A stretch of 64,000 nucleotides of DNA, taken from NCBI GenBank assembly GCA_022711395.1, contig JAKLFA010000003.1, positions 162,509 through 226,508 on the forward strand, given 5' to 3'. The stretch is from Candidatus Omnitrophota bacterium (GTDB lineage: Bacteria > Omnitrophota > Gorgyraeia > Zapsychrales > JANLHA01). Position numbers and translations under genes: made by a program. This document shows positions 26,701-53,088 of this stretch, one piece after another. Below the pieces are notes generated by a model, which was given only the letters and a program-made list of their open reading frames with translations, ran no database searches and was not told the origin of the DNA. Each line of letters starts with the position of its first letter. Position 1 is the stretch's first letter.

Positions 26701-29244
26701 GGCATAGGTCTGAAGTCCTTCGGTTGTTACCGCTCCGCCGTTGATCGCGATCCCATTGTCAGCAGATGACGTGACGTTCAGTGACGCCAGGGCCTTGCTG
26801 GTCCCGACCGCGCCGGAAAACGTCACCGTTCCCGCCCCGGCGTCGATCGTGACCGGGGACGCGGCAAGATTTGTTTCTTTGACATAATGAGCAAGCGTGC
26901 CGGTGGAAGCCGCGAGGTCATTCCATTGGCCTTCGGTCCCGGTAAACTGCAGGGCCGATTCATAATCCAATCCTCCTGACACCGGGCGTGTCTGCGAAGG
27001 GCTTCCGCCGTAGTTATTCGGTTCTCCGCTGCTCCAATTCGTGAATGCCCCATCGATCGCCGCCCCTCCGCCGGAATCGCTCTGCGTAAAAAACTGCCGG
27101 CCTTTTTCGCCATCCTCGGTTCCTTCCGGCCCGGCCACCCAGCGCCACACCGCGTTGGTGCTTGGGGTCAGCCCGACCACGCGCCGCCCCCCCAGCCAGG
27201 ACGGTTCGTAATTCACGGTCCTGCCCGCGATCGCGTTTTCCAAACGGGAGGTGATCGTTGCTAAATAGGTATCGTCGACCTCGCTGCCGTCACCTTCCGA
27301 TCCAAGCTCTGCGTTTCCTAATGCTTGGGTCCATGTTCCCGTATACGCCACATCGGTATAACTATTCCCGGAATTCAGCAGGCCGTAAAACCTGACGTTG
27401 CCGCCATTGGTCGTAATAATCAAACCGTCGGTATTTCCGACCAGCATCTCCCCTTTAACATTAACGGCCCCGCCGTTGGTCGAGATCGTCCGTGTGCCTG
27501 ATCCTGCCACATACACGTCCCCGCCGACCATGGTCGTCACGCCGTTCAAATCGATCGTGCTGCCGTCACCAAAATTCACGTAACCGCCGTTGGTGGTAAT
27601 GTCCTCGTTAAGCAAAATAATGCCGTCACCGTCATGTGCGCCGTTATCGTTATCTGCCAGCACATCCACGTTCAACTTGCCTGTCCCTCCGTCATTGCTG
27701 ATCCCCGCGTTGATCGTGATCGTTTTTGCCGCCTGCAATGTCAACGTGACATCTGTATCACCGGATCCCTTGGAGATCGCGCTGCTGACGGTAATGTTCC
27801 CGTTCTGGGTCCCGGCGCCGGCGGTCGTGACATTGACGCTGGTTCCCCCTTCCAGCAAACCGTTGATCGTTGTGTTTAAAATGGTTGAATCGTTGCCGGT
27901 GGCGACCCATGTCCCTGAAGAAAAACTTCCGCCGGAAGTCGCCGTGGTGATGGTGACATTATACGGATCGAACAACCAGATCCCGGCATCTCCGTGAGGG
28001 GCGATCGCTCCGCCTGTCACGCCAGCCGTGTCCAGCCAATGACCGGAGGTTTCGATCCGCCCGCCGTCGCCGCCGTTCATCCCGCCTCTGGCTAAAAATG
28101 TTCCGTAAGCCCGCGTGACCGAATCAGGATCCGTAACATCTGACCACGCGACAACAGTTCCGCCGTCGCCGCTCTCCGTGGCGCTCGCGTCAAGCAAAGC
28201 CCCGTTTGAAATCACAACGCCGGTCGCCTCATAGATTTCAGGATCGGAACCCTGCCAGCCTCCGCCCGCATAGATCTCTCCGCCGCCTGTCGATCCTCTT
28301 GCCAAAACCTCAGCGCCTTCTTCAACAAGGACCCTCTCCCCCGTCGCCACAACTTTCCCGCCGATGGATCCTTCCGATGACACATCCACAGTGCCCGCGA
28401 TCGTTACCTGCCCGTTTTCCCCAGCGGCCAGAAAGATCCTTCCGCCCTGCTCGCTGATCCCTTTCGCCTCAAGAACGCCATCGTTATTGACGACCGCGTT
28501 CGTTAATTCATCTTTCGCCAGGGCGGTCATCACAATCAACCCGCCGTCGGCTTTAATCAGCTGCTTGTTCTCGGCCAAAGCATCGACAGCGCCTTCCTCA
28601 ACATTGTAATTGATCAGCTGATCTCCAAAAAAATCCAGGCTGACCTTGTCGCCCGCAGCCATCAAAACACTTCCCTCGGAAGAACTGATCTGTCCCTCAT
28701 TACGGACAACGGGGCTCAATAACGCGACATACCCGCCTTCCCCGGAAAGGATCTGCCCCTGATTCAGGACCATGCCCGCGGCCCCGGCGTTTTCAAAAAT
28801 AAAATTCCCGTTCAGAAAATTTTCATCGGATATATTTAAAGAAGAAGCGACCAGACCGCCCACATTGACCTGAGCGGAGGGACCGAAAATGATCCCGGCG
28901 GAATTTAAGAGAAAGACCTGCCCGTTGGCGCTCAGGTTTCCGAAGATCTGGCTGGGATTCTGATCAAAGATACGGTTAAGGGCAACGCTCGAGGAGGCGG
29001 GCTGTATAAATTGAACAGCGGCATCCTGCCCGATATTGAACGTGTTCCAGTCGGCGATCATCCGGTCCGTATACTGGTTGACGGTCATGCCGGACCCGCT
29101 TTGGCTGATATCACCGCTTCCGGATACGATCGTCCCTCCGGTGGGAAGTTCTTGAACATCAACAGCCAGGGCAGGCAGCCCGCTCACGTGGAGAAAAAAA
29201 CACAGCGCCAGACCGGCGCGAAAAAAACGCCCAAAGGATTTCAC
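23797..29244 (-). CDS. Two-partner-secretion exoprotein TpsA (about 1815 aa). It has an N-terminal TPS secretion domain, a long Gly/Thr/Asn-rich beta-helical repeat region, an embedded C-type-lectin-like segment and a C-terminal MBG-like domain.
   Basis: Hemagglutination-activity (TPS) domain signature (NQYTDRMIADWNTFNIGQDAAVQF...NPSQIFG...NSAGIIFG). Probable GTG start at 29244 with an AAAGGAGA RBS 6 nt upstream; the ORF-track start at 29403 would overlap tpsB. It lies 17 nt downstream of tpsB. Confidence 0.85.
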   Translation of the reverse strand: MKSFGRFFRAGLALCFFLHVSGLPALAVDVQELPTGGTIVSGSGDISQSGSGMTVNQYTDRMIADWNTFNIGQDAAVQFIQPASSSVALNRIFDQNPSQIFGNLSANGQVFLLNSAGIIFGPSAQVNVGGLVASSLNISDENFLNGNFIFENAGAAGMVLNQGQILSGEGGYVALLSPVVRNEGQISSSEGSVLMAAGDKVSLDFFGDQLINYNVEEGAVDALAENKQLIKADGGLIVMTALAKDELTNAVVNNDGVLEAKGISEQGGRIFLAAGENGQVTIAGTVDVSSEGSIGGKVVATGERVLVEEGAEVLARGSTGGGEIYAGGGWQGSDPEIYEATGVVISNGALLDASATESGDGGTVVAWSDVTDPDSVTRAYGTFLARGGMNGGDGGRIETSGHWLDTAGVTGGAIAPHGDAGIWLFDPYNVTITTATSGGSFSSGTWVATGNDSTILNTTINGLLEGGTSVNVTTAGAGTQNGNITVSSAISKGSGDTDVTLTLQAAKTITINAGISNDGGTGKLNVDVLADNDNGAHDGDGIILLNEDITTNGGYVNFGDGSTIDLNGVTTMVGGDVYVAGSGTRTISTNGGAVNVKGEMLVGNTDGLIITTNGGNVRFYGLLNSGNSYTDVAYTGTWTQALGNAELGSEGDGSEVDDTYLATITSRLENAIAGRTVNYEPSWLGGRRVVGLTPSTNAVWRWVAGPEGTEDGEKGRQFFTQSDSGGGAAIDGAFTNWSSGEPNNYGGSPSQTRPVSGGLDYESALQFTGTEGQWNDLAASTGTLAHYVKETNLAASPVTIDAGAGTVTFSGAVGTSKALASLNVTSSADNGIAINGGAVTTEGLQTYAGDITLGAAATTLTQTNAATDFTLQASKSITNAYGNDASLTVKTTGSIIMDAGSSIESSTGALDTVLWADADVNNNGYIFLYDGTVVDTNGGDIVMAGGADDNSDGRPDGFATATATYSGVSIGRLNNAATAGTTIQSGGGNIFIKGKSTAGAGTGMGINYSHSGTLDAGSGTLTMIGESSSYAGIELSAWLDGAPSGSYLDINAGTVNISGTSSNTNYHGLSSSQLSSRYTRITAGAGGITLYGHNTVNTAKGVGISQNMTTTNGGDITVESPNYVDIYAGANAHSFNAGTGNTILKTNLLSIGANHTISGSGTLTIEPYTSRAINIGTTGAGTLDIAASYFSTNFANGFSSVTIGNATAGDITVGGAVTFNDDTILKNNAKIDITDTITMVEDLTVEAGNGRVLVNGDISKTSGSDATLTLKATSYITTADSSSGYIASGLSSNLANNNPSAISSTSNKLNVLINPGSAGAAGGFWLSSGSSIETNGGYVTIGGGATPATTRAMGINLTSYESNSLMRGAAINGTINALGGNIIINGQGSNAVEYARGVHIGGTVSTTGEGTITISGQAYGSSDGTAISGGTVSSQNGTISITGVKDTGTNGINLSTAGSSIASTGTGSLVLSSTGNIAGTGSLDIGGTTSLTAGAGQITLNNTSNDFTGAVSVVSGNDISIIDSNAMTLAAVNSTGTVSAATLTGDLTLAGAIETTNTGNSAIVLNAGKNTAAGTSTGGNIIVSGGSVTVGAGGRATLYSGDVSDSTGLTALIGSGSGKFRYNSDESASNFSTALGAGHYAVYREQPAVTVTASNDSKTYDGLAYSGGNGVGMTGLQNGDTSAQALSGSVSYGGTSQGAMAIGTYTITPSGYTSLLGYAVNYANGTLTIASAPGSADIDTVVRSLTSLQQAVNGTQETSSGGSGEASGASSPGDVYAMGPGAGSSSIDMFSVFKLIEDRTQQGGNTGSFPDETEE

Positions 29245-29260
29245 GGGTCTCTCCTTTTCA

Positions 29261-30979
29261 TTAGAACCAGATTGTGGCCTGGGCCCAAACCCGGCCGCTT
29301 TCATCCTGATTATCAGAATTGTTGTCGAACGCGTCCCGTCCGGGATTCTTTCCCAGCGCGTGAGCATACGAGAACTGCAGGCGATACGATCCCTGCTTTT
29401 CAAAATTCACACCGGCGCCCACGCCGGACAGCCAATAGTGGTTCCGGCCCGAAATATTCGTCACGGAATTGGACCACGTCCCTTCATGGAGCCTCACCTG
29501 GCCGGCATCAACAAAACCCACCAGCTGTGTCTTGAACGCGGTCTTTAAAGGCAGATCGTAGCGGTTTTCAAACGTCAGGATATGGCCCGTGTCACCGGAA
29601 GCCTCTCCGATCGGATACGCGCGCACGCCCGTGGGCCCTCCCAGAATGATTTTTTGTGATGAATCAAGATTTCCGTCGGCGAACTGCCCCCTGGCAGAAA
29701 AGAAGAGCGACGTGTTTTTCGTCGCCCGCTGCAGGCGCGCCAGGGCATACGTTGCCCGTGAAAAATTTCCGCTCACGCGCGCCCCTGAATCATCCCCAGA
29801 GCTCCCATCCGTGATATTCACGCTTCCGGCGTAAAACGACATCAGAGCGCTGGTCAGCCCCCCTCGGAAAAACTCATCATAAAAATTCCCCGTTAAATTC
29901 AGGTTCGCGGCGGAAACGCTGCGGTCACTGGTCACGTCTCCGGCGGATTTGTCTTCCAGCAAATACTGCTCATATCCTGATCCGATCCAGACGCTGGCCC
30001 TTCGTGTCCGCTTGACCGGATACTTAAGGTTCGTCCCGAAGGTGTGAGCGGAACCCTTGGCCTGCAGGTCTTTTAGCTTTCCGCCTAGCTCATAACGCAG
30101 CCCATTATACGAAAAATCCGCGATCGCGCCACGGGACCCGACAGGAAGCGAAAGATCCGCCCGGCCCTGATTCAGATCATCGGCGTTGATGTAGGTCATC
30201 CTCAAAAGATCGCCTTTTCCTAACGAATCAATAAGGGCCACCTGCCCGGTCCGGCGGAATCTGCCGGTATACCGGTTGCCGAAATTGTCGCCTGACACCG
30301 TTGCGGCGACCCACCGCCCTTCCTTGGAAAGCAGCGATAGGCGCGACGTCCCGGGGACCTCTCCTTTATCCAGATAAGCCCTGGCTGAGACGCCGGGAAG
30401 GTCGTTCATCAATAAGACCGCCCGCTCCACATCCTTGAGCATCACGGTCTCGCCTTCGGCAATAGACTGCCTCGCGATCCGTTCAAGAAACGTTTTGTTG
30501 ATCCGGTGATCGCCATCGATCGAAACGCCGACCTTGCCATCCAGGCGCCCCACGCTGACCGCGATGATAACATTTCCTTCGGTCACGTCCTGCTGAGGAA
30601 GATACGCCCGCGCCAGAAGATAGCCTTTCGTTTCTCTTAAATATAGGGTGATCTTCTGCGCCAAGCGCTGCAGGTCAGCGAACGAAACCTCATTCCCCAC
30701 GCAGGGCGCAGCTATCTTCTCAAGCTCTTTCAGGGAAACGACCTTTTCATAGCCTGTAAATTCGAAACTTTTAACGCGGACTTTGATCCCGGGATCGGCG
30801 GTCATCTCCGGGGGAGCTTCGATCTCAGCGGACGAAGACGCCGGCGGTGTTCTTTGAAGATCGACCTGTTCCTGCTGGCGTAATATCGATCCGGAATCCG
30901 GAGGGGCGGCCAAAACAGGAAAACAAAAACTAAAAAGAGAAATTAAAACGGAACAGAGAAGGAGATTTTTTATTTTCAT
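29261..30979 (-). CDS. Two-partner-secretion outer-membrane transporter TpsB (ShlB/FhaC/HecB family, POTRA + Omp85-like barrel).
   Basis: Signal peptide, POTRA-like N-terminal region, and a C-terminal barrel with conserved motif (RAYPIGEASGDTG...). 572 aa. Immediately upstream of tpsA. Confidence 0.85.
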   Translation of the reverse strand: MKIKNLLLCSVLISLFSFCFPVLAAPPDSGSILRQQEQVDLQRTPPASSSAEIEAPPEMTADPGIKVRVKSFEFTGYEKVVSLKELEKIAAPCVGNEVSFADLQRLAQKITLYLRETKGYLLARAYLPQQDVTEGNVIIAVSVGRLDGKVGVSIDGDHRINKTFLERIARQSIAEGETVMLKDVERAVLLMNDLPGVSARAYLDKGEVPGTSRLSLLSKEGRWVAATVSGDNFGNRYTGRFRRTGQVALIDSLGKGDLLRMTYINADDLNQGRADLSLPVGSRGAIADFSYNGLRYELGGKLKDLQAKGSAHTFGTNLKYPVKRTRRASVWIGSGYEQYLLEDKSAGDVTSDRSVSAANLNLTGNFYDEFFRGGLTSALMSFYAGSVNITDGSSGDDSGARVSGNFSRATYALARLQRATKNTSLFFSARGQFADGNLDSSQKIILGGPTGVRAYPIGEASGDTGHILTFENRYDLPLKTAFKTQLVGFVDAGQVRLHEGTWSNSVTNISGRNHYWLSGVGAGVNFEKQGSYRLQFSYAHALGKNPGRDAFDNNSDNQDESGRVWAQATIWF

Positions 30980-31650: not shown

Positions 31651-31668
31651 TAATTGAAGGATATCCAT

Positions 31669-32859
31669 ATGGCCCTTTCCGTGGGGATCGGTTTCAATAA
31701 TGACAAGAACTCAAATCTGGCGGCCGCAGCCGCGATCGAGCAGGCAAAACGCAAGATCCATGTCAACCGCATCGACCTGATCCTGGTTTTGGCTACCCCC
31801 CATTATTCACCGGAAAACATCATACAGGCGATCGGAGACCGCCTTGATTCTCCGCGGGTCATCGGTTGCTCGACCGAAGCTATCATCATTGATCGTGTGA
31901 TCCATAAACGGGGTGTCGCGGTCGCGCTGTTCCACTCCAATCAAATGAAATTTGAGACCGGCTCGGTCCAGCATTTGAACCTGCAGAACCCCCAGCAAGC
32001 TGCCGCATCCCTGATCCATTCCTGCAAATCGGAGTACGGAGAAAAGGAGCGCCGTCTGTTCTTCGTGTTCACGGAAGGCGCCCCCAACAACATCCCGGCC
32101 ATCCATCATCACCTGCGCAAAGAGCTCAAAAACGAACCGGAAATGCCGATCCTGGGGTCTTCCGCCACCAATATGGTCGCTCCTGACAGTTCCTTTCTTT
32201 TTCATAACAATGAAACGGTCAAAAAAGCCGCCACGGTTTTTGTCCTTGGCGGGAAAGCGACCGTCAAGACGGTCACCCGGCACGGCTGGCATCCCATCGG
32301 CCGCCCGAGATTTGTGGATAAGAGCAGCCATCACATCATCCATTCGATCGATGGTCGTCCGGCGATTGAACTCTACAAAACATTTTTTCCCGAGCAATAT
32401 CATTTATTAAAAGACCCTTCTTCTTCGCTGAACCTTTATTATCCTTTGGGCATCGCCAGCGGGAAGCGGGGCACCTTCTTTATCCGAAATATCATAGATG
32501 TCCTTGACGACGGCAGTATCGTCTGCAATGATAATGTGGATTCCGGTTCCCAGGTCCATATCATGCTGGGCAACAAAGATTCCTGCCTGCAGGTCACCAA
32601 AGAAGCCATCCAAGAGTTCAAAGGCTTTTTTTCTGACCAGCCAACAGGCCTGGCCCTGGTCATCGTGTCCGAAAAGCATCACCGGATCCTGGGGCGTTCC
32701 TTTGAACGGGAGCTCGCTTTTGTCAAACGCGCCGCTGGAGAAAATATCCCTGTTTTTGGATTTGTCAGTTACGGAGAGATTTTTGACACGGGAGACGCTT
32801 GCCAGCAGACTCTCAATTCAAGACAAAACAATAATTTAACCTTAATCGGGATAAAATAA
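31669..32859 (+). CDS. FIST-domain sensory protein (FIST_N + FIST_C).
   Basis: Typical FIST N-terminus (MALSVGIGF...) and conserved architecture. Probable start is the ATG at 31669 with an AAGGA RBS; the ORF-track start at 31654 is upstream. First gene of a three-gene signalling operon. Confidence 0.7.
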   Translation: MALSVGIGFNNDKNSNLAAAAAIEQAKRKIHVNRIDLILVLATPHYSPENIIQAIGDRLDSPRVIGCSTEAIIIDRVIHKRGVAVALFHSNQMKFETGSVQHLNLQNPQQAAASLIHSCKSEYGEKERRLFFVFTEGAPNNIPAIHHHLRKELKNEPEMPILGSSATNMVAPDSSFLFHNNETVKKAATVFVLGGKATVKTVTRHGWHPIGRPRFVDKSSHHIIHSIDGRPAIELYKTFFPEQYHLLKDPSSSLNLYYPLGIASGKRGTFFIRNIIDVLDDGSIVCNDNVDSGSQVHIMLGNKDSCLQVTKEAIQEFKGFFSDQPTGLALVIVSEKHHRILGRSFERELAFVKRAAGENIPVFGFVSYGEIFDTGDACQQTLNSRQNNNLTLIGIK

Positions 32860-32867
32860 AATTACCT

Positions 32868-34343
32868 ATGTTGTGGGCCGTTCTGATAACCCTTTTTCTC
32901 TGCCTGATCGCCGGAGGGGCGTTTGTCGCCATTCATCAAAGAAGTAAGATCAACGCCCTTTCTGAGGCGGTCCAGCGGTTCAAGGATTCCTTTGATGAGA
33001 TCGATGAACAGGCCAAGCTGATCATCAAGACCGACCTTGAGCTTAACCGCACCCAGGAGGAACTGGATAAGCGCCTCAAAGGGCTCGACGCTCTTCAGGC
33101 GATCTCACGGCTGGTCAGCACGACTTTGGATGAACATGAGATCTTTGAGCTTCTGGGCGAGCCCCTTGTCGCTGACATGGGCCTGGAACAATATTATTTC
33201 CTGATCCTGAACAGCGAAGGCTCCCTGAATTGCGCCGCCCATCTGGGTTCCACGGCAGAGGAAGCGAAGCGCATCCTCTCTTTGGTCGGAAACAACCTAA
33301 CGCTCATTGACCAGCTCAAAAGCCGGCAGACCATTTCGTCCATTAATGCCACGGATGAAGAGCGCTCTTTTTTCACAAGACACTTAAAAACACGGCATTT
33401 TATCATCACACCGATCATGGCCAAGAACACCATGCTGGGCATTCTGATCGCCACCAGCCATTCGACGACATACGCCGTTTCGGAAGGGGATGAAGAGATC
33501 TCATCGATCCTGGCGGACCAGATCGGCCAGGCCATCCAGAACGCCAGGCTGTTCGAGGAGGTCTATCACTCACGCCAAAAACTGGAGATCATGGTGCAGG
33601 AGCGCACCCGGCAGCTCCAGGAAGCCCTTTCCAACGTCCAGCAGGTCAGTAAAATGAAATCCGAATTTATTTCCGCGGTCTCGCACGAGCTGCGCACCCC
33701 CCTGACCTCGATCAAAGGGTACGCTTCGCTGTTAAGTTCCGGTAAACTGGGCGATATTCCTGACACCGTGCGCCAGCGCCTGGAAAAGATCAATCATCAT
33801 TCCGACAGCCTGGTGCAGCTGATCAACAATCTGCTGGATATTTCCCGTATTGAATCCGGAAAGACCAGCATGAACCGTAAGAAAATGCCGATCGTTCCGG
33901 TCATTGAGAACGTCCAGGACCTTCTCATGCCGCAGCTTAAAGACAAGAACGTCCAGCTTATCATCCAGATCCGTCAGCCCCTTCCGGAGCTTCTGATCGA
34001 CCAAAGCCAGATCGAACGCGTCTTTATCAATCTGGTCGGCAATGCCATCAAATTCACCCCTTCCCAGGGAACGATCACCGTCAGCGGAGAACCCAGGGAA
34101 AGTGACGCGCTCTTTAAGGTCACGGACACCGGGATCGGCCTCAAAGAAGACGAACGCCGCAAGCTGTTCAATGAATTTTACCGTGTCGACAATGAGATCA
34201 ACCAGAACGTGAAAGGCTCAGGCCTCGGCCTTTCCCTGGCGAGGAAGATCATTGAGGCGCATAACGGCCAGATCTGGGTCGAAAGCGTTTACAAAAAAGG
34301 TTCCACCTTCGCCTTCACGATCCCGCTTGATGATCAAAAATAA
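32868..34343 (+). CDS. Sensor histidine kinase with an N-terminal TM helix, coiled coil, GAF domain, HisKA and HATPase_c.
   Basis: H-box (SHELRTPLTSIKGY), N box (NLVGNAIKF), G1 (DTGIGL) and G2 (GSGLGLSLA). A GAF-like region lies between the coiled coil and HisKA. Confidence 0.85.
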   Translation: MLWAVLITLFLCLIAGGAFVAIHQRSKINALSEAVQRFKDSFDEIDEQAKLIIKTDLELNRTQEELDKRLKGLDALQAISRLVSTTLDEHEIFELLGEPLVADMGLEQYYFLILNSEGSLNCAAHLGSTAEEAKRILSLVGNNLTLIDQLKSRQTISSINATDEERSFFTRHLKTRHFIITPIMAKNTMLGILIATSHSTTYAVSEGDEEISSILADQIGQAIQNARLFEEVYHSRQKLEIMVQERTRQLQEALSNVQQVSKMKSEFISAVSHELRTPLTSIKGYASLLSSGKLGDIPDTVRQRLEKINHHSDSLVQLINNLLDISRIESGKTSMNRKKMPIVPVIENVQDLLMPQLKDKNVQLIIQIRQPLPELLIDQSQIERVFINLVGNAIKFTPSQGTITVSGEPRESDALFKVTDTGIGLKEDERRKLFNEFYRVDNEINQNVKGSGLGLSLARKIIEAHNGQIWVESVYKKGSTFAFTIPLDDQK

Positions 34344-45057: not shown

Positions 45058-48000
45058 TTACGGCGTCTGGCCCAGAAAATGCATGACATTGGCGTGAGGA
45101 AGAACATTGACCACAACTGGTGAGAGCCCGGTCAGCTCTTCTTTCAAGAGCAGCTCCGGCGCATCAAGCGATTCTGTCCAGCGCCGCCATAATTGATCGG
45201 TCACTGCGGAAGTTTCAACATCGATATCCGTAAGATCGATACCACCTGTCGGCGCCCCTTCGCCTGGCAAGACGGCGGAGTTCGTCCCCCTTTCCCCTGT
45301 CCTCCTTCCCCCTTCTGTTTTTTTCGCCTGCTCCGCCAGCGACTGGGCAGCGATCTGCCTCATAAAAAATTTAAATCTTTTTCCATGCGTAAAAATACTT
45401 TCTTCTTTTTCGGAAATAAAGAACACTCCACTCAAATTCTTCAGCCCTCCAGAATCGACCAAATGCTCAAGAAAATGCGCAGCCTCATGAACGACCGTCT
45501 CCGTTGCCTGATGCCGGCCGCTTAAACTTGCTATCCCTTCAGCCAGTGTGTCAGCGTTAAGGTACATGGTCACTTCGCCGGCCATATTAATAGAAAACAG
45601 CCCGCTAAAAGGAAGCCGTTTCCCGCGACCGGAGACGATCTTGACGTCCTGAAGCCCCAAAGGCCCCGCCACCTCCCGCCCGATCCGCAAAAGAGCCTTC
45701 AACGGTTCCGTGCCCGGATCGATCACATGATCTTCAGGGTTAATGCTCTGGCTTTCTTCCATGTCCGCCGCGACCTGGGCCCTTTTTTGAGCATGAGGGT
45801 CATGGGAACGCAGCGATCGTTCATAATCACGTCCTGTTTTTTGAGCGGCCAGACGTGCGCGCCGTTCATCGATCTTGGCCTGGGTCTTGATCCGCCTTTG
45901 CAAATAGCTGTTCACCTGCGGCCGGCCCTGTTCATCCGGAACAAACGCTTCGATCAGGACAAGGACGCGGGTCAGGACATCATCCGTTCGGTCGCAAAGG
46001 TCCCTCATGGATTCCAATCGATCATAATCGAAAGAATCCGCCGCGGCCCCCTTAAAAAGCTCCTGATTGATCTGCCCGATCACATCAAACATGTGGATAT
46101 TCCCGTCCAGCATAAGCCCAGGATTGTTTTGCGGTTCAACCGAGTTCCAATAATGCTCCGCCGGATTGACCTCCCAGTCCCTGGGAACCTCATCTAGCGT
46201 GAATGTTGTCTCCTTGCTTAATCCCCTGGAGACAAGAGCGCGATAGAAAGCGACCGCGACACTCTTTTGGATCTCCGGCAGGACCACATCCTCCTCCATG
46301 AACGAACTGCGGTTCTGGATCAGGCGTAACGGCGCATCAATTTGAATGACCAGCCCGATCTGTTTGGCATACCGCCGCAATTTTTGCGGGACCAGATCAA
46401 GAAAATGTTCTTTTTCTTTCAAGCTGTCGATCCGCAAACCCCGGCGGTCAACGACCTGCATCGGCATATCAGGATCCGCCGTGGCCCATACACGGACAGA
46501 ACCCTCCACGGTCCTTCCTTCGTCAAGAGATCGCACGCGCAATCCCGCTGAGGCCAGAGCCTCTTTTCCTCTGACCGCCAAAACGTCCGCGTCCTGAAGC
46601 GTTCCATCCTCTGCTGCCGGCTTCAAGAACCGGATGTTGAATTCCCCTCCTGCGGACATCCCGGCGTGCATCTTCCAGGCCCTGCGGGCGATCATCTGCT
46701 CAAGTTCCGGCAAACTTTTTCCGGGAGCGCGCATCCGCCGAATCCCAACACCTTTTTTAACAGACGAAGACGGGATCTTGGTGATCTCCACCAGCACGAG
46801 CTTGCGCCGTTCATAATCCACTTCGACATCAAAAACAAAACTCTCAACCCCGTTGTTCATGATGATCTGGACCTGGTCCATGCCGGCATACATCGTGAAT
46901 TTTCCTGTTCCAAAAAATCCGACCACCTGAGAATCCTGCCCGGCCTCCGCCTTATTCGATTGAGGGATCAAAAGCGCCAGGGCCTTGCCCAACGGAGGCC
47001 CGGCCCCGTCATCCCAGATCTCTTCGACATACATCCCGCTGCGCTCATCCACATAATATTCGATCTCAAGGTTCCTGGCGCCGGCATCCGTGGAATTCTG
47101 AGCGATCTCAGCGGCATAGGCCCCCGCCTCCCTCTGGACCTCGACCAATTTAAAGATCTCCTCGGTCAACTTGGCGCTTCCTGTCTGGCGTGAGACCGCT
47201 TCGCTGTTCGCAATAATATCGTCGATCGTATAAAGATCTGTGTCCTGCTCGGCCCTCCTGGGCTTGGAGCGGTTATACATCGCCAACTGGTCCAGCGTCA
47301 CATCGATCGAATGGAACTCTCCCGGAAAGACCTCGATCTTCTTCTTCGCGATCGGCTCCGTGTCGCTGACAAGAAAAACAAAAAAATCATTTAGGATCCC
47401 CAGCGACCCCCTGTCCGCCTCAGGGTCGGTCAACGCACGGAACAATTCATCCTGTTCAAAACCTTCGAATGCCCGGCTCATTTCTTCAATGTAACGAGGA
47501 TATTGGAGCATTTTTTCAAGCTGTCCGGCAAATCTGGCAGGGTCCACCCCTTCCTCATTGACCAGCAACTGCAGTATTTGAACGACCTTGGAAACATGCT
47601 CCGCGCCGCTGCCCTGGATCTTTCCGATCAATGCCTGGACCGGGGCCATGGCTGATAACAACGGTTCGGTCCTCGGATACCATCCATAGGACAGAGCTAA
47701 AAAGAATTCTTCTGTTAGAACCGCTGAATTGACCTCATGATCAGCGCCGGCCAGCGCCATCAATCCGGCAAAGAAATTTCTATAAAGGTCTGCCCGCGCC
47801 TTTCTGCCCTCCTGTTCGAACCGTCCCTGGATCTTCTGCCATACAGTAGACCCGTCGGGAAGAACTCTGTCAAGGGCCTGCACAAAAGCCCCCATGCGTT
47901 CAGCCATTTTGGAAAAAGGCTCATAACCCAACTCCACCGGCTCTCCTCCTTCCGCACGGTCGATCTGCTTCTTAAGCTGTTCCTGGATCCTCCGGCTCTC

Positions 48001-51000
48001 CGATACATAAAGATGAAAAATTCCCGGCGCCATCTCTCTTTGAAGGCGATCCGGAACACGTTCCAAAAGCGGCCCATACACCGCCTGGGCCCGACCGATC
48101 CATTCAGCCCGATGAGCAGCGACAAGCCTATTCCATGCTTCCAGCGTCTTTCCCCCGATCCGGGGCCGGCTGACCGGGGCCCGCCCCAGAACAAAAAGCC
48201 TGGGATCGATAAGGCTCAACCGGTTCATCGCCGTGGCCGGACTTCCATGCTCCTGCTTCCACCTGAAATCGATCGAATCCTTTTCCCCGGAAGGCGGAAC
48301 AAGGGCGGGGGATTTAACGAACTCACTGAACGGGATCTGATACAAGAGCCCGTCCGGGGTCAGCAAAAGATGAACATCTCCGCTCGGTGAATATGTGCGC
48401 TGCTCATCAAGAAGGACGATCGTGAAATACGTTTCCTTGCCTATCGTATGCCTGACCGGCCCCACCAAAGACTTGACCGTGCCCGGAAAGATCTCCGCAG
48501 TCAAAAAATCCTCAAGATTTGCCTCCGCCGCCTGACCGGTCAGCGGATTAAAAAAGATCCTGGCGGCAACGCGGTCATCGATCGAATCGAACTTGACCGG
48601 GATCCGCGCCTGCCCGATGAATTCCAGCTCAAACTCTCCGGGGTCCGCGAGCTCATGGTCCTTCGATTCAGAAATGATCTGCCCATTTTCCCCCATCCGA
48701 AAGAACCTGTACATGCGTCCCTGATAGCCGTTTGAAAGAAGCGATACCGGCTGCATGGAATACTGAATGAACAATCCTCCTCCCAGATGGCGGATGTTTT
48801 CACTGACCGGGGCCGCGACCGTATCTGAAATCTTTTTAGGATTCAATATGAAATCCACGTCTCGAACGCTTCCGTTTTTTTTCTCGATCCCTTCAAAATA
48901 TCTTGGAACAGAAGAGTCGGAATACCCGGAAAAATCTCCCTGATAAATCAGCTTTCCTGTTAATTGATCATAAACGCTGAGCTGCCAATACAGGCCGGGG
49001 TCATCTTGCAGGACCTTGGCGCCGTTCTCGATATCAGAGGGAAGGGCCTCCTGGCTGGCAACAACAAAAACACGATCACCCTCCTTGGCTGTTCCCACAA
49101 GATAGCGTGGACGCCCGCTCATCATGGGCACATCTAAATTGGCGCGGTCTAACGGATCGCGTTTAACGCCAAACACATGGACCGCAATATTGGACCAGGA
49201 CTCTTCACCAATGTAATTCAGATATCCCGCTCCGTTACGCATCATGGAAATTCGTTCGCCTTGCCCGGCAGATTCTCTCATCTGTGTTTGGTCGATAGAA
49301 TGATTTTTACAATCATACGCCCAGACCGTGCCCTGAAACGACTCCCCCGGGATACTCGCATCGTTCACAATAAAGAAACCTGTTTCCGAATCAGGATGTT
49401 CTATCAGCTTCGTTTTCAGGCCATTGGTTTCGATCTTGTTTTTGACCGCTCCGGTTCTGATGTCGATCACGTCCCACGACTGCCTGTCCGAGCCAAAAGG
49501 CTCCCCTATATTTAAGATCGGCGCCATTCCGTCACGCACCACCAGCGTGTTGCCGAACAAATACCTCTCCGAACTAAACCTGTAATTGACAAAAAGGTCC
49601 AGCGGAAAAAATCTATGCGCCTTTTGCTGGTCAGGGTCCACGAATTCATCACGGCTAAAACTCCGGAAGACGATCTCATCCCGCGCGGACTCGACGACAA
49701 CGCCTTTCTCAAAAAAATACGCGTTCCGATGCCGGCCCAAATACTTTCCGGTCTTCTGCGGCCCCCCGGCCTCACTGGATATATAATTGATCATGTCCAC
49801 AAAACTCCCGAACGTCGATTCTTTCTGCCTTGCCAATTCCTTAAGAGAAGGGTTCCTGGCTTCCCCTGCCACGGGCCTGAAGATCTTCACCGAAGGCTCC
49901 TTCAAAAATCCCTCAATGGCCGCGGCATCCGGCCCGACGGGCTGAACATCAGACGGACCCGGCCCCTCCGATCCCCCGGTCTTTTTTTGAAGCCGGCTTC
50001 TCTGTCCTCCCATTTCATAACTTGTCGTCAAATCTTCTTCTTTAGTGATCTGGATGGACAAACGTTCCAGCAGAGATGCCAGACGGATCTGCTCATCATC
50101 AGAAAGCGCTCCGTCGCGTTCTCTTTTTTCTATCAAATCTAAAACCACATCCATCCACTGTTTAGGAACAAGGATCACCGTTCCTGTTTCGATCATCGGG
50201 ATCTGCGCGTCCTTAGCCCCAAGCTGCAATTGTTTCATGCTGTCTTCATTAAAATCAACGGCCATCAACGTCAGTTCGGTCTCGCGCCCGTTCACGCGCT
50301 GCGATACGGAAATGATGTCTTTGGAAACCGCCCTGGCCTGCAGACTTTTTAAGGCCGTTGCGCCGTCCTGCCAGTCAAACAGGAATTCATTCAAATACAC
50401 AGCCGTCACGCCTTGCGGCAAAGCCACCTGCGAGAACTGGACATCGTCCGGGAAGAACAAATATTTCGGATCGCCTGAAAGCTTTAAGACCACCCGCCCG
50501 ATCAGCTCTTTGACCCGGCCCCTCATCATCTGCAGCACCTGTTGATTGTGAGGGTTATCTCCCGCAAGTTCCTGAAGACCGTTAATTAAAGAGTTGATCA
50601 GCCGTAATTTATCGATATCCGTCATCCGGTCCTGCGTGATGCTGAGGATCTGCCTCACCACCTGTTCGATGCCGGCCGCCATCGCCTGCTGCCCGCTCTC
50701 TGAAGACGGAAAAATGATCTTGTCCCGCGCCTGCTGGACCTGCAACAACCGGCCCATTTCAAGCATCAGCCGTCCTTTAAAGATCCCCTGAGGATGGATG
50801 CCGGAAGGGACCTCGATCTCCTTAATGATCTCTCCGTTGCGAGAAAAGGCGACAACGCTGCGTTCCTCCGGCATGTCCTCATGCGCCAAAGCAAGATAAT
50901 CGAGCTCATTCTGAATATGCTCCGCCGTCAGCTGCGAGGCCGCCTGTTTGTCCCCGCCTTCCGCCGGAATGAACATGCGTGATAGCGTCGCGACGTTCAT

Positions 51001-53088
51001 GCCCTTGCCGTTGTCCACGATCCTGATCGAATGGGCGTCCAGCCCGACCCGGATATGGCGCCCTCCGAATGCGTCGCGTTCATCGCCGAAACCGAAGATC
51101 AGCCTGCGGCGGTCCCAGCCGTTGACATGGTCCTTTAGCCCATTCAATTCCAGGTCAATGCGCACATCCCTGACGAACCTGAAGCGGTCCTTGATGGACC
51201 CTGCGATCTGCTCCAGGACGCTGGACCCGTCCGGCGTTTTTTCAGCGGACAGGTCTCGCGCAGCCGAAACCTCCACCACGGTCCCCTGCTCCGCGCTTTC
51301 ACCGGCCTTTGAAAAAAACTCCTGCTCCGTCATCGCAGAGACCTGCACATACCACTGCCCATGGTCGTCACGGACGATCTGAAGATGGTTTGCCGTGCCG
51401 TCCGATGTCTTCGAATACACATCAATACGGTCTCTGCCGCTTTTATCAAGCCAGCTTAAGATCTGCTTAACGCCTTTGCCGAACTGTCCGATCCAGTGAT
51501 CCGAGCTTGCGCGCAACGCGTCGATACTGTTGGCGACCGCCTCCAGGACGCTCTGCGACTTGGCGTTCGCGTTTTGCCCCAGGACCGTCACGTTCAAACG
51601 GGGGTCTTTATAAGCATAACCACCGTCCGATCTGTTGATAAGGTCTACCGTTTCGGCTGAATATCCCCGCCGGGTCAACTCAAGAAGAATGCCGTTATAA
51701 TAAGCGGTCCGGGACCCTGCGGAGAACACATCATCCTCCTCCATGATCCCCAAATGCCGAAGCACGGCCTCAAGCCGCTCGTCATCCAGTTCCCGGTTCG
51801 CCAGGCGCTGCTGCGCGACCAAAAAATGTTCCAGGTCCACGCCTTGAAAAATACCGTCGCTCGATCTGTATTCCGTCGCCTGCAGCCGGGACTTGACCGC
51901 CCTGGCCAGAATATCCTCATCCCCCGCGATCCCAGTGCCCGTCGATGTCCCATCACGATAAAAACGGTAATGCCCGCTCAAAATGGCCGAGTTTCCTTCA
52001 AAACGGATATCGGCAGAAGCCGCCGGAACCTCTTCAATGGCCGGCTTCAAGTTTGTGCTGGAAAACCCGATCCCTCCGGAAAAATATTTTCGCGGAATGA
52101 TCTGCTGACTTAACGGGTCCTCTTCTTCCCGTATATAGTTGTAGACCCCTTTTTTAAATGACGCGACATACTGCTCGTAGATCCTTTGAGAGGCCTCTGG
52201 CTCATCATGCTCAACGCCACGCAGCTTGCCCTTGCTGCCGTAAACGCGCATCAGCATGCTTTCCCGAAGGGTATTCCGGTACCACGTCGCGAGGATCAGC
52301 GCGTAATAGATCTGCCGCAGGCGGGAAAAACTTTTTCCCGCGTTGACTTCCTGCTCAATCGCGGGAAGGATGATCTGCCGGTAAACTTCCTCCGCCTCCG
52401 CCGATATCGGATTTTTTTCCTCAACGCCGTTACTGGTCATGGCCAAATAATCCTTTTCGAGCATGACCTTGAGCCTGGCCTTGCTGATCACGGCTGTCTG
52501 CCCATGGACGGCGACCTGGGCCTTGTCCGGCATGATCCAGACCTTGTGGAAGGTTTCCAAAGGCGCGTCAGATTTTCCGAACTTTTTGGCGATCTGCGAC
52601 CGGACCGTTGACCAGAACTCCTGGCCCAGTTCTTTTTCAGGATATAGCAGCGAAGCGGAAAGCTGTTTCAAAAGATAGTCCTGCGCCAGAAGGTCCCGGC
52701 CCATTTCTGTCTGCCCAAAATCCGGCGCGATGATCCGGTGTTCCTCATAAGGAGACAGGTTGACCCAAAAATCCTCTTCCGGGATCGCCAATCCTGTCAG
52801 GAAAAAACGGATCAACGCCTCCCCTTCTTCTTTCAGTGCCTCCTGAGAAATGTCCTGACTGCCGGTGTCCACAATAAAATTAAATTCAAACGGCTTTTCG
52901 ATATCAAACTGCAGACCCTTTAAAAGTACCGGACTAAACGGCTGGCTGAATGAGACCATTTCCCCGATGACCGGCAAAGCCGGCATAGGTTGGGCCCAAG
53001 AACAGGTAGGATAGATCGAATAAAATACAAAATTTGCCAAAAATAAGCAAAAAAATGATTTTTTTATATACTTTTTTGTGTCGGCCAT
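45058..53088 (-). CDS. Giant 2676-aa exported protein with an N-terminal Sec signal peptide. It carries an N-box/G1/G2 motif set typical of the GHKL/Bergerat ATP-binding fold (aa about 1994-2065), a second degenerate GHKL-like motif set (aa about 515-700) and a C-terminal HExxH zincin-like motif (HEAAHFLEH, aa 2534-2542). Otherwise uncharacterised.
   Basis: Single uninterrupted 8031-nt ORF starting at the ATG at 53088. Signal peptide MADTKKYIKKSFFCLFLANFVFYSIYPTCSWA. Motifs read from the translation (listed under findings). Confidence 0.8.
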   Translation of the reverse strand: MADTKKYIKKSFFCLFLANFVFYSIYPTCSWAQPMPALPVIGEMVSFSQPFSPVLLKGLQFDIEKPFEFNFIVDTGSQDISQEALKEEGEALIRFFLTGLAIPEEDFWVNLSPYEEHRIIAPDFGQTEMGRDLLAQDYLLKQLSASLLYPEKELGQEFWSTVRSQIAKKFGKSDAPLETFHKVWIMPDKAQVAVHGQTAVISKARLKVMLEKDYLAMTSNGVEEKNPISAEAEEVYRQIILPAIEQEVNAGKSFSRLRQIYYALILATWYRNTLRESMLMRVYGSKGKLRGVEHDEPEASQRIYEQYVASFKKGVYNYIREEEDPLSQQIIPRKYFSGGIGFSSTNLKPAIEEVPAASADIRFEGNSAILSGHYRFYRDGTSTGTGIAGDEDILARAVKSRLQATEYRSSDGIFQGVDLEHFLVAQQRLANRELDDERLEAVLRHLGIMEEDDVFSAGSRTAYYNGILLELTRRGYSAETVDLINRSDGGYAYKDPRLNVTVLGQNANAKSQSVLEAVANSIDALRASSDHWIGQFGKGVKQILSWLDKSGRDRIDVYSKTSDGTANHLQIVRDDHGQWYVQVSAMTEQEFFSKAGESAEQGTVVEVSAARDLSAEKTPDGSSVLEQIAGSIKDRFRFVRDVRIDLELNGLKDHVNGWDRRRLIFGFGDERDAFGGRHIRVGLDAHSIRIVDNGKGMNVATLSRMFIPAEGGDKQAASQLTAEHIQNELDYLALAHEDMPEERSVVAFSRNGEIIKEIEVPSGIHPQGIFKGRLMLEMGRLLQVQQARDKIIFPSSESGQQAMAAGIEQVVRQILSITQDRMTDIDKLRLINSLINGLQELAGDNPHNQQVLQMMRGRVKELIGRVVLKLSGDPKYLFFPDDVQFSQVALPQGVTAVYLNEFLFDWQDGATALKSLQARAVSKDIISVSQRVNGRETELTLMAVDFNEDSMKQLQLGAKDAQIPMIETGTVILVPKQWMDVVLDLIEKRERDGALSDDEQIRLASLLERLSIQITKEEDLTTSYEMGGQRSRLQKKTGGSEGPGPSDVQPVGPDAAAIEGFLKEPSVKIFRPVAGEARNPSLKELARQKESTFGSFVDMINYISSEAGGPQKTGKYLGRHRNAYFFEKGVVVESARDEIVFRSFSRDEFVDPDQQKAHRFFPLDLFVNYRFSSERYLFGNTLVVRDGMAPILNIGEPFGSDRQSWDVIDIRTGAVKNKIETNGLKTKLIEHPDSETGFFIVNDASIPGESFQGTVWAYDCKNHSIDQTQMRESAGQGERISMMRNGAGYLNYIGEESWSNIAVHVFGVKRDPLDRANLDVPMMSGRPRYLVGTAKEGDRVFVVASQEALPSDIENGAKVLQDDPGLYWQLSVYDQLTGKLIYQGDFSGYSDSSVPRYFEGIEKKNGSVRDVDFILNPKKISDTVAAPVSENIRHLGGGLFIQYSMQPVSLLSNGYQGRMYRFFRMGENGQIISESKDHELADPGEFELEFIGQARIPVKFDSIDDRVAARIFFNPLTGQAAEANLEDFLTAEIFPGTVKSLVGPVRHTIGKETYFTIVLLDEQRTYSPSGDVHLLLTPDGLLYQIPFSEFVKSPALVPPSGEKDSIDFRWKQEHGSPATAMNRLSLIDPRLFVLGRAPVSRPRIGGKTLEAWNRLVAAHRAEWIGRAQAVYGPLLERVPDRLQREMAPGIFHLYVSESRRIQEQLKKQIDRAEGGEPVELGYEPFSKMAERMGAFVQALDRVLPDGSTVWQKIQGRFEQEGRKARADLYRNFFAGLMALAGADHEVNSAVLTEEFFLALSYGWYPRTEPLLSAMAPVQALIGKIQGSGAEHVSKVVQILQLLVNEEGVDPARFAGQLEKMLQYPRYIEEMSRAFEGFEQDELFRALTDPEADRGSLGILNDFFVFLVSDTEPIAKKKIEVFPGEFHSIDVTLDQLAMYNRSKPRRAEQDTDLYTIDDIIANSEAVSRQTGSAKLTEEIFKLVEVQREAGAYAAEIAQNSTDAGARNLEIEYYVDERSGMYVEEIWDDGAGPPLGKALALLIPQSNKAEAGQDSQVVGFFGTGKFTMYAGMDQVQIIMNNGVESFVFDVEVDYERRKLVLVEITKIPSSSVKKGVGIRRMRAPGKSLPELEQMIARRAWKMHAGMSAGGEFNIRFLKPAAEDGTLQDADVLAVRGKEALASAGLRVRSLDEGRTVEGSVRVWATADPDMPMQVVDRRGLRIDSLKEKEHFLDLVPQKLRRYAKQIGLVIQIDAPLRLIQNRSSFMEEDVVLPEIQKSVAVAFYRALVSRGLSKETTFTLDEVPRDWEVNPAEHYWNSVEPQNNPGLMLDGNIHMFDVIGQINQELFKGAAADSFDYDRLESMRDLCDRTDDVLTRVLVLIEAFVPDEQGRPQVNSYLQRRIKTQAKIDERRARLAAQKTGRDYERSLRSHDPHAQKRAQVAADMEESQSINPEDHVIDPGTEPLKALLRIGREVAGPLGLQDVKIVSGRGKRLPFSGLFSINMAGEVTMYLNADTLAEGIASLSGRHQATETVVHEAAHFLEHLVDSGGLKNLSGVFFISEKEESIFTHGKRFKFFMRQIAAQSLAEQAKKTEGGRRTGERGTNSAVLPGEGAPTGGIDLTDIDVETSAVTDQLWRRWTESLDAPELLLKEELTGLSPVVVNVLPHANVMHFLGQTP

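What the first reader, a model, noticed from the sequence alone, without database searches (positions are those of the whole stretch)
46900..47109. Canonical N-box / G1 / G2 triad of the GHKL (MutL/Hsp90/MORC/sacsin-like) ATP-binding fold inside the giant protein
Residues 1994-2004 read EIAQNSTDAGA (N-box ExxxNxxDA; compare MutL ELVENSLDAGA). A G1 box at 2026-2030 reads DDGAG. A G2 box at 2057-2065 reads GFFGTGKFT. The spacings of about 32 and 31 aa match MutL and sacsin-type HATPase domains. This is sequence-level evidence for a nucleotide-binding Bergerat fold in a protein predicted to be exported, which is unusual.
Basis: seen in the sequence. Interest (0 to 1): 0.7.

Follow-up and report, generated by a model that had tools for sequence, protein, structure and literature searches.

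The report
Twin Hsp90-like ATPase modules, one permuted
The three motifs are real and mark the ATP pocket of a complete Hsp90/MORC-type ATPase module in a 2,676-residue, signal-peptide-bearing protein of an uncultured Omnitrophota bacterium, and the same protein carries a second copy of this module whose sequence segments are in a rearranged order.

Summary
Observation confirmed. EIAQNSTDAGA (aa 1994-2004), DDGAG (2026-2030) and GFFGTGKFT (2057-2065) lie on the minus-strand ORF 45058..53088. Their key residues are invariant in 20 homologs of 28-46% identity. The combination arose in 1 of 20,000 shuffles.

Beyond the finding:
- A second GHL module at aa ~505-830 has the motif order N-box, G2, GT, G1. 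Moving one segment in silico restores homology (hhalign 4.7% to 89.6%).
- A conserved HExxH domain follows the C-terminal module.
- The protein belongs to an Omnitrophota superfamily of about 2,000 proteins. They share a Sec-type signal peptide, an unknown 300-aa N-domain and a C-terminal GGIDL...PVIINI tail around varied cytoplasmic-type enzymes.

ATP use and export are inferred, not shown.

The parts
45058..53088 (-). Giant ORF, 2,676 aa plus stop codon
   Evidence: An identical JGI protein, P0001, was called from Met35. Homologs align from about aa 5-14, which supports the upstream start.
52990..53088 (-). Sec-type signal peptide, aa 1-33: n-region MADTKKYIKKS, h-region FFCLFLANFVFYSIY, c-region PTCSWA|QP
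   Evidence: This is the only hydrophobic segment of the protein. The same n/h/c pattern is present in 118 of 118 paralogs. No signal-peptide predictor was available, so cleavage is inferred.
52054..52986 (-). Omnitrophota-wide N-terminal 'bookend' domain, aa 35-345
   Evidence: Shared at 45-53% identity with about 1,960 large proteins that carry unrelated enzyme domains. It has no Pfam or PDB relative.
50599..51576 (-). Second, sequence-permuted GHL module, aa ~505-830. The conserved block runs on to about aa 1025 (w50014).
51517..51546 (-). N-box of the permuted module, LEAVANSIDA, aa 515-524
   Evidence: E516, N520 and D523 are invariant in 21 sequences.
51463..51489 (-). G2 box of the permuted module, GQFGKGVKQ, aa 534-542, only 10 aa after the N-box
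   Evidence: It aligns to the Hsp90 segment IGQFGVGFYS.
50998..51018 (-). G1 box of the permuted module, VDNGKGM, aa 691-697, lying downstream of G2 and of the GT box (aa 602-603)
   Evidence: It aligns to the HtpG segment IKDNGIGM plus the lid Lys.
48229..49866 (-). Variable middle region, aa ~1075-1620
   Evidence: No homolog aligns here. Some relatives carry WD40 or PQQ beta-propeller Pfam domains in the equivalent region.
47209..48231 (-). Conserved region preceding the C-terminal module, aa ~1620-1960
   Evidence: Conserved in homologs. Fold not determined.
46099..47166 (-). C-terminal GHL module, aa ~1975-2330: Bergerat ATP-binding domain (~1975-2160) plus transducer-like domain (~2160-2330)
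47077..47109 (-). N-box, EIAQNSTDAGA, aa 1994-2004. Glu1994 is the putative general base and Asn1998 the putative Mg ligand.
   Evidence: Aligned to Hsp82 E33/N37/D40.
46999..47013 (-). G1 box, DDGAG, aa 2026-2030. Asp2026 is the putative adenine contact.
   Evidence: Aligned to Hsp82 D79-G83.
46894..46920 (-). G2 box, GFFGTGKFT, aa 2057-2065. This is the end of the ATP lid, which includes invariant Ser2044 and Lys2046.
   Evidence: Aligned to Hsp82 GQFGVGFYS. Model residues 88-99, which precede it, have pLDDT below 50, as is typical of lids.
46309..46311 (-). Arg2260 in the LIQNRSSF loop, candidate catalytic arginine of the transducer-like domain
   Evidence: Invariant (R301 of alignment A1). 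It lies in the loop before the long helix 307-331 of the model, as Arg380 does in Hsp90 (PMC9880540). A contact with ATP was not measured.
45289..46101 (-). Conserved C-terminal domain, aa 2330-2600, with invariant HEAAH (aa 2534-2538, w45475-45489) and His2568
   Evidence: There is only a weak SprT-like Pfam hit, E 0.059, and no PDB relative.
45061..45246 (-). C-terminal 'bookend' tail, aa 2615-2676: GGIDLT...LTGLSPVVVNVLPHANVMHFLG
   Evidence: GGI[DN][LFM] occurs within the last 150 aa in 108 of the 120 best-scoring relatives.

Best explanation
The triad is the nucleotide pocket of a complete GHL-type ATPase module of the gyrase/Hsp90/MutL class. The module has a Bergerat ATP-binding domain and a second, transducer-like domain that supplies an invariant arginine, Arg2260. 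Its nearest relatives in sequence and fold are Hsp90, sacsin and MORC.

The protein has two such modules. The upstream one (aa ~505-830) contains every element exactly once. However, the beta-hairpin, G1 box and lid-Lys segment has been moved from between the N-box and G2 to behind the GT strand. The two modules and a following HExxH domain co-occur across the family.

Proposed mechanism:
- ATP-Mg binds through Asn1998, Asp2026 and the Gly-rich lid.
- The lid closes and Arg2260 docks.
- Glu1994 activates water for hydrolysis.
- As in other GHL enzymes, nucleotide binding drives association of two ATPase domains. Here these are most economically the two modules of one chain, forming an intramolecular pseudo-heterodimer. 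The resulting clamp or switch would act on a client or on the adjacent HExxH domain.

Shown: the motifs, their conservation, the fold class, the permutation and the co-occurrence. Inferred: ATP binding and hydrolysis, pairing of the modules, the role of the HExxH domain, and the cellular compartment. My confidence differs by part: about 0.9 that this is a genuine GHL-type module, about 0.8 that the upstream module is a permuted copy, about 0.6 that it turns over ATP, and about 0.35 that the two modules pair within one chain.
For: - Motifs are exact and their key residues invariant. The shuffle test gave 1 match in 20,000.
- Pfam HATPase_c_3 scores E 2.6e-5; 6 of 20 members hit it.
- In NCBIfam, 8 of 20 members hit the sacsin N-terminal model and 6 of 20 hit 'HSP90 family protein', best 1.7e-8.
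- The family profile hits Hsp82/HSC82 at E 1e-6, aligning E33, N37, D79, the lid KSGTK and GQFGVG.
- hhalign against the C-module rises from 4.7% over 74 columns to 89.6% over 219 columns only when the G1 segment is placed before G2. Seven other segment orders stay near 4.7%.
- After un-permutation, the best PDB profile E-value improves from 3.7e-4 (partial match; 2 sequences at E <= 0.001) to 6e-6 (contiguous), with 100 sequences at E <= 0.01.
- After un-permutation, Pfam HATPase_c_3 hits rise from 0 of 21 to 14 of 21.
- The N-module, C-module and HExxH domain co-occur in nearly all long members among 286 representatives.
Against: - No ATP binding or hydrolysis was measured.
- I could not open the model coordinates, so pocket geometry is inferred from alignments.
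- All curated-family scores are below their cut-offs.
- The Thr of the GT box is Val in this module (GVGIRR).
- The protein begins with a conserved Sec-type signal peptide, so the module may work where ATP is scarce.
- Pairing of the two modules is an analogy to GHL dimerisation, not a result. Sacsin's Hsp90-like domains are thought not to dimerise (PMC9880540).
- The alignments are shallow, at 20-21 sequences.
Confidence: 0.6

Rival explanations
1. The module is a degenerate or repurposed GHKL fold. It works outside the cytoplasm without ATP turnover, as a scaffold or a binder of another ligand. The motifs would be retained for fold stability or ligand binding only.
For: A conserved signal peptide predicts export. 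The GT-box Thr is replaced by Val in this module. Scores to curated ATPase families are sub-threshold.
Against: The general-base Glu, the Mg-binding Asn, the adenine-binding Asp, all lid glycines, the lid Ser and Lys, and the transducer Arg are invariant at 28-46% identity. The second module keeps its own full set. This pattern is expected under selection for catalysis, not for fold alone.
Confidence: 0.2
2. The protein is not exported. The N-terminal hydrophobic stretch is an uncleaved anchor, or translation starts at Met35 as in the JGI gene call. The ATPase modules would then work in the producer's own cytoplasm.
For: JGI called the gene from Met35. No Shine-Dalgarno sequence is visible before either ATG. 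The cargo domains of the superfamily are overwhelmingly cytoplasmic-type, cofactor-dependent enzymes. Published topology predictions for long Omnitrophota proteins are described as unreliable (10.1101/2023.11.21.568195).
Against: Homologs align through the hydrophobic N-terminus. All 118 paralogs keep a hydrophobic core, 115 of 118 have Lys/Arg before that core, and 99 of 118 have a small-x-small site near the junction with the N-domain. The positive-inside rule would put the bulk of the protein outside. No other hydrophobic segment exists.
Confidence: 0.2
3. It is a DNA-acting GHKL enzyme of the MutL, MORC or topoisomerase type, as the first reader's MutL comparison suggests.
Against: TIGR00585 scores 11.8 bits against a cut-off of 180. 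No MutL C-terminal, TOPRIM, CW or other DNA-binding domain is detected. Sequence profiles prefer Hsp90 and sacsin. There are no PADLOC hits and no restriction or defence neighbours. A signal peptide is present.
Confidence: 0.05
4. It is a histidine-kinase-type catalytic (CA) domain used for phosphotransfer signalling.
For: HATPase_c-type Pfam hits. A genuine histidine kinase in the same window scores the same on HATPase_c_3, 24.5 bits.
Confidence: 0.03

Closest known systems
Hsp90 family (HtpG, Hsp82, TRAP1, GRP94): N-terminal ATPase domain plus the first part of the middle domain
   Different: There is no Pfam HSP90 (PF00183) hit and no C-terminal dimerisation domain. The lid is shorter, 31 aa from G1 to G2 against about 39. 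The module sits internally in a 2,676-aa secreted-type protein. It occurs twice per chain, with one copy permuted.
Sacsin repeating regions (SRR / Hsp90-like domains) and bacterial 'sacsin N-terminal ATP-binding-like' proteins (NCBIfam NF047352)
   Different: The score of 24.2 bits is far below the curated cut-off of 50. There are no HEPN, DnaJ or XPCB domains. Sacsin's repeats are all in canonical order. Sacsin is cytosolic.
MORC / SMCHD1 GHKL-plus-S5 ATPase modules, including prokaryotic MORC-like (HATPase_c_3) proteins
   Different: No MORC-specific S5, coiled-coil or CW domains are detected. There is no restriction-modification or defence context. The candidate catalytic residue is Arg, as in Hsp90, rather than the conserved Lys of MORC, MutL and GyrB. 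That last point is from my own knowledge and was not tested here.
Long and giant multi-enzyme proteins of Omnitrophota (West-Roberts et al. 2023, bioRxiv 10.1101/2023.11.21.568195; 2026 preprint 10.64898/2026.06.07.730766)
   Same: Same phylum. These are long proteins with signal peptides or TM segments that carry cytoplasmic-type domains. HATPase_c is listed among their most frequent Pfam domains.
   Different: In the sections I read, those surveys treat proteins of about 10 kaa or more and count Pfam hits. They do not describe this 2-5 kaa family, the twin GHL modules, the permutation, or the shared N-domain and C-tail bookends.

Membership tests
GHKL superfamily (Bergerat fold) | Motif I / N-box ExxxNxxD on a helix | tested here: met
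   EIAQNSTDA, aa 1994-2002. E, N and D are invariant. The motif lies on helix 32-42 of the model.
GHKL superfamily (Bergerat fold) | Motif II / G1 DxGxG at the end of a beta-strand | tested here: met
   DDGAG, aa 2026-2030, after strand 61-67 of the model.
GHKL superfamily (Bergerat fold) | Motif III / G2 GxxGxG closing a flexible ATP lid | tested here: met
   GFFGTG, aa 2057-2062, invariant. The preceding model residues 88-99 have pLDDT below 50.
GHKL superfamily (Bergerat fold) | Motif IV / GT box Thr | tested here: not met
   The C-terminal module has G-V (GVGIRR; GV[T/G][V/I]RR in homologs) at the equivalent strand. The upstream module keeps an invariant G602-T603.
GHKL superfamily (Bergerat fold) | Alpha/beta sandwich fold matching solved GHKL domains | tested here: met
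GHKL superfamily (Bergerat fold) | Binds and hydrolyses ATP-Mg | not testable with these tools
   Needs biochemistry.
GHL subclass (GyrB / Hsp90 / MutL / MORC: GHKL plus transducer domain) | A second domain follows the GHKL domain and contributes a conserved basic residue to the active site | tested here: inconclusive
Hsp90 family | Passes the Pfam HSP90 or NCBIfam HtpG/HSP90 thresholds and has a C-terminal dimerisation domain | tested here: not met
   No PF00183 hit at E <= 1. PRK14083 is hit by only 6 of 20 members and not by the query at E <= 0.01. No C-terminal domain homology was found.
MutL | TIGR00585 equivalog score and MutL C-terminal endonuclease/dimerisation domain | tested here: not met
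   11.8 bits against a cut-off of 180. No MutL_C hit.
Sacsin-type ATP-binding domain (NF047352) | Curated cut-off of 50 bits | tested here: not met
   24.2 bits, E 3.5e-5. Eight of 20 members hit at E <= 0.01.
Histidine kinase CA domain | Adjacent HisKA/DHp phospho-acceptor domain, and closest fold match to kinase CA domains | tested here: not met
Sec-dependent secreted proteins | N-terminal signal peptide with n, h and c regions and a small-x-small cleavage site | tested here: inconclusive
   The pattern is present (KKYIKK / FFCLFLANFVFYSIY / SWA|Q) and conserved in paralogs. No trained predictor or experiment was available.
Zincin-like metallopeptidases (C-terminal domain) | HExxH plus a third ligand in a recognisable zincin fold | tested here: inconclusive
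   HExxH and a downstream His are invariant. Only a weak SprT-like hit exists, E 0.059, with no PDB relative. The fold was not predicted.

The most novel reading that the evidence does not exclude
The protein is an intramolecular, heterodimeric Hsp90-like machine. One canonical and one naturally segment-permuted Bergerat domain close on each other in an ATP-dependent way. It operates outside the producer's cytoplasm, for example after delivery to the surface or interior of a host or prey cell where ATP is available. It would be one member of a very large Omnitrophota effector or 'exo-enzyme' superfamily, defined by a signal peptide, an unknown 300-aa N-domain and a GGIDL...PVIINI C-terminal tail that together act as an export or sorting cassette for cytoplasmic-type enzymes.
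Probability: 0.15. Interest if true: 0.85.

Novelty: new variant of a known kind. Interest (0 to 1): 0.6.

Why it matters
GHKL ATPases are well understood as dimerising ATP switches. A family with two modules in one chain would be a natural experiment on how connectivity and dimerisation constrain this fold. That is especially so because one module has a rewired segment order, which I did not find described in the held literature.

The protein also gives a concrete, small (2.7 kaa) entry point into a puzzle of Omnitrophota biology. About two thousand signal-peptide-bearing proteins carry ATP-, NAD- or sugar-phosphate-dependent enzymes between the same N- and C-terminal bookends. Finding out where these proteins go would bear on the proposed predatory or parasitic lifestyle of these uncultured nanobacteria.

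Tried and rejected
- Chance motif: rejected by the shuffle test and by conservation.
- MutL membership: rejected.
- Histidine-kinase CA domain: rejected.
- Defence-system role: PADLOC gave no hit.
- Conserved operon partners: none found. The query and two homologs sit among unrelated housekeeping genes.
- Other members of the family in this window: none (tblastn).
- C-terminal HExxH region: the profile search against PDB sequences gave only spurious S100 hits.
- N-terminal bookend domain: neither the PDB profile search nor Pfam gave a hit.
- Variable middle region, aa 1075-1620: no homolog aligns and there is no Pfam hit. Its fold is undetermined.
- The afdb50 structure library was unavailable.
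- A literature search for Omnitrophota fusions of signal peptides with glycolytic enzymes gave nothing relevant.
- The Pfam HATPase_c_3 score alone does not discriminate. A real histidine kinase in the window scores the same.
Full report
**1. The observation.**

The region 46900-47109 lies inside a 2,676-codon ORF on the minus strand, window 45058..53088.
- EIAQNSTDAGA is aa 1994-2004 (w47077-47109).
- DDGAG is aa 2026-2030 (w46999-47013).
- GFFGTGKFT is aa 2057-2065 (w46894-46920). This overshoots the stated start by 6 nt.

The combined pattern with these spacings appears once in the protein and in 1 of 20,000 shuffles of it.

**2. Is it a GHKL domain?**

*Single-sequence searches.* These are borderline.
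- Pfam HATPase_c_3 gives E 2.6e-5 and 24.7 bits against a cut-off of 25.
- NCBIfam 'sacsin N-terminal ATP-binding-like' gives E 3.5e-5, and MutL TIGR00585 only 11.8 bits against 180.
- A genuine histidine kinase elsewhere in the window scores the same on HATPase_c_3. That hit shows superfamily membership only.

*Homologs.* A database search found about 20 relatives from Candidatus Omnitrophica/Omnitrophota metagenomes. They share aa ~1-1070 and ~1620-2676 at 24-37% identity.

*Conservation.* I aligned aa 1960-2330 with 19 relatives of 28-46% identity. The following residues are invariant:
- E1994, N1998, D2001, D2026, G2030, G2057, G2060 and G2062.
- Lid residues S2044 and K2046.
- R2260.

*Family profile against known families.*
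- The profile hits the yeast HSC82/Hsp82 N-domain at E 1e-6 to 1e-5. It aligns the N-box with E33/N37/D40, G1 with D79-G83, the lid with KSGTK and G2 with GQFGVGFYS.
- Six of 20 members hit HATPase_c_3 individually.
- Eight hit the sacsin model and six an 'HSP90 family protein' model, best 1.7e-8.

*Fold.*
- An AlphaFold2 model of aa 1960-2330 has mean pLDDT 79.9 and pTM 0.77. Its only internal low-confidence stretch within the ATPase module is the expected lid.
- Foldseek ranks closed, nucleotide-bound Hsp90 structures first, at E about 1e-12 and TM 0.58.

*Conclusion.* The motifs belong to a two-domain GHL module: a Bergerat domain plus a transducer-like domain. R2260 sits in the loop before the long helix, where Hsp90 has its catalytic Arg380 (PMC9880540).

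*Caveats.*
- I could not open the coordinates, so pocket geometry is inferred from these alignments.
- The GT-box Thr is Val here.

**3. A second, permuted module.**

*The motif order.* Scanning the protein showed a second motif set: LEAVANSIDA (515-524), GQFGKG (534-539) and IVDNGKGM (690-697). All are invariant in 21 sequences, as is a GT box at 602-603. The order is therefore N-box, G2, GT, G1 and then lid Lys, instead of N-box, G1, lid, G2, GT.

*Fold of the upstream module.*
- An AlphaFold2 model of aa 495-1030 is confident, with pLDDT 83.9 and pTM 0.84.

*In-silico test of the rearrangement.* I cut the alignment into four segments: A (495-530), B (531-668), C (669-720) and D (721-830). 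I then re-joined them in different orders.
- In native order ABCD, the profile aligns to the C-terminal module at hhalign probability 4.7% over 74 columns.
- In order ACBD it aligns at 89.6%, E 1.9e-6, over 219 contiguous columns running from the N-box into the transducer domain.
- Of nine orders tried, only those placing C directly before B improve. ACBD gives 89.6% and CBAD 75%; the others stay near 4.7%.
- Against PDB sequences, the native profile's best hit is a partial one at 3.7e-4. The un-permuted profile gives 100 hits at E <= 0.01, including HtpG at 6e-6 and GyrB at 2.4e-5 over positions 20-211.
- Against Pfam, HATPase_c_3 hits go from 0 of 21 to 14 of 21, and HATPase_c hits from 6 of 21 to 17 of 21.

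*Conclusion.* I conclude that the upstream module is a GHL module in which the beta-hairpin, G1 box and lid-Lys segment has been transposed. A full-text search found no paper describing a permuted GHKL fold. That is weak negative evidence.

**4. The rest of the protein.**

- *C-terminal domain.* After the C-terminal module comes a conserved region with invariant HExxH (2534-2538) and His2568. It has only a weak SprT-like hit and no PDB relative. It may be a small zincin-like domain.
- *Middle region.* Aa 1075-1620 has no aligned homolog.
- *N-terminus.* It reads MADTKKYIKKS-FFCLFLANFVFYSIY-PTCSWA|QP and is the only hydrophobic segment of the protein. All 118 paralogs examined keep a hydrophobic core. 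Of these, 115 have Lys/Arg before the core and 99 have a small-x-small site near the junction.
- *Shared N-domain.* Aa 35-345 is shared at about 50% identity with roughly 1,960 large Omnitrophota proteins. Their other domains are wildly different: triose-phosphate isomerase, GAPDH, PGK, enolase, phosphoglucomutase, PEP-utilising enzymes, kinases, methyltransferases, GGDEF, receiver domains and HATPase_c.
- *Shared C-tail.* Of the best 120 such proteins, 108 also end in a common tail, GGIDL...GFxPVIINIxPVxNLPLLLG. The query has it at aa 2615-2676.
- *Status of the N-domain.* It has no Pfam or PDB relative.

A nucleotide-dependent fold behind a signal peptide is therefore systematic in this superfamily rather than a peculiarity of this gene.

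**5. Distribution and context.**

- An exhaustive profile search of 1.84 billion representatives finds only 286 proteins at E <= 1e-3. Nearly all long ones carry N-module, C-module and HExxH domain in that order.
- Genome hits are mostly Candidatus Omnitrophota MAGs, and one MAG has two copies.
- Neighbours are unrelated housekeeping genes in the window (carA, carB, purF, pyrG, gltBD) and in two homolog loci.
- PADLOC finds nothing.

**6. Mechanism.**

*Shown:* an intact, conserved catalytic constellation in two GHL modules of one chain, plus a conserved HExxH domain.

*Inferred from established GHL enzymology* (PMC12733681; PMC9880540): ATP-Mg binding, lid closure, docking of the transducer Arg, and nucleotide-driven association of two ATPase domains.

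Because two modules always co-occur, the simplest model is an intramolecular pseudo-heterodimeric clamp or switch, perhaps acting on a client or on the HExxH domain.

*Open problem:* the source of ATP if the protein is truly exported. The possibilities are:
- delivery to a host or prey cell;
- an ATP-independent role;
- a wrong topology inference.

Published surveys of long Omnitrophota proteins note both the frequency of HATPase_c and the unreliability of topology predictions.

**7. Verdict.**

The closest relatives are Hsp90, sacsin and MORC rather than MutL, and no curated family threshold is passed. I file it as a new variant of a known kind.

Noticed in passing
window 52054-53088 (aa 1-345) and 45061-45246 (aa 2615-2676), minus strand: An Omnitrophota 'bookend' superfamily. 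About 1,960 large proteins share a Sec-type signal peptide, a highly conserved 300-aa N-domain (53 invariant columns in 25 paralogs) with no Pfam or PDB relative, and a C-terminal GGIDL...PVIINI...LLLG tail. Unrelated cytoplasmic-type enzyme domains lie between them. It looks like an export or sorting cassette.
   Followed up: partly
window 45289-46101, minus strand (aa 2330-2600): A conserved domain with invariant HExxH (aa 2534-2538) and a downstream invariant His2568. It immediately follows the C-terminal GHL module in nearly all family members. It may be a small zincin-like peptidase, but no significant database relative was found.
   Followed up: partly
window 23797-30979, minus strand: A two-partner secretion pair: a 1,868-aa TpsA-like protein (TPS secretion domain, E 4e-35) directly downstream of a 572-aa ShlB/FhaC-type TpsB transporter (POTRA_2 plus ShlB). 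The two ORFs as listed overlap by about 140 nt.
   Followed up: no
window 52986-53088, minus strand: The start codon is ambiguous. JGI called this gene from Met35, which removes the signal peptide. Homolog alignments support Met1. No Shine-Dalgarno sequence is visible before either ATG, and the first ~100 nt are markedly AT-rich.
   Followed up: partly
window 48229-49866, minus strand (aa 1075-1620): The segment between the two GHL modules is not conserved with any relative and has no Pfam hit. In some relatives the equivalent position holds WD40 or PQQ beta-propeller domains.
   Followed up: no
L004 and L005 (contigs JBGAJA010000001.1 and JBGAJA010000002.1): One Omnitrophota MAG (MAG_AAO_H125.54) encodes two paralogs of the twin-GHL protein on different contigs, at 47% and 46% identity to the query module.
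   Followed up: no
window 21077-22861 and 31654-34343: Ordinary sensor histidine kinases (Cache-HAMP-PAS-HisKA-HATPase_c and GAF-HisKA-HATPase_c) and a FIST-domain protein. They served as an in-window calibration of the HATPase_c_3 score.
   Followed up: no
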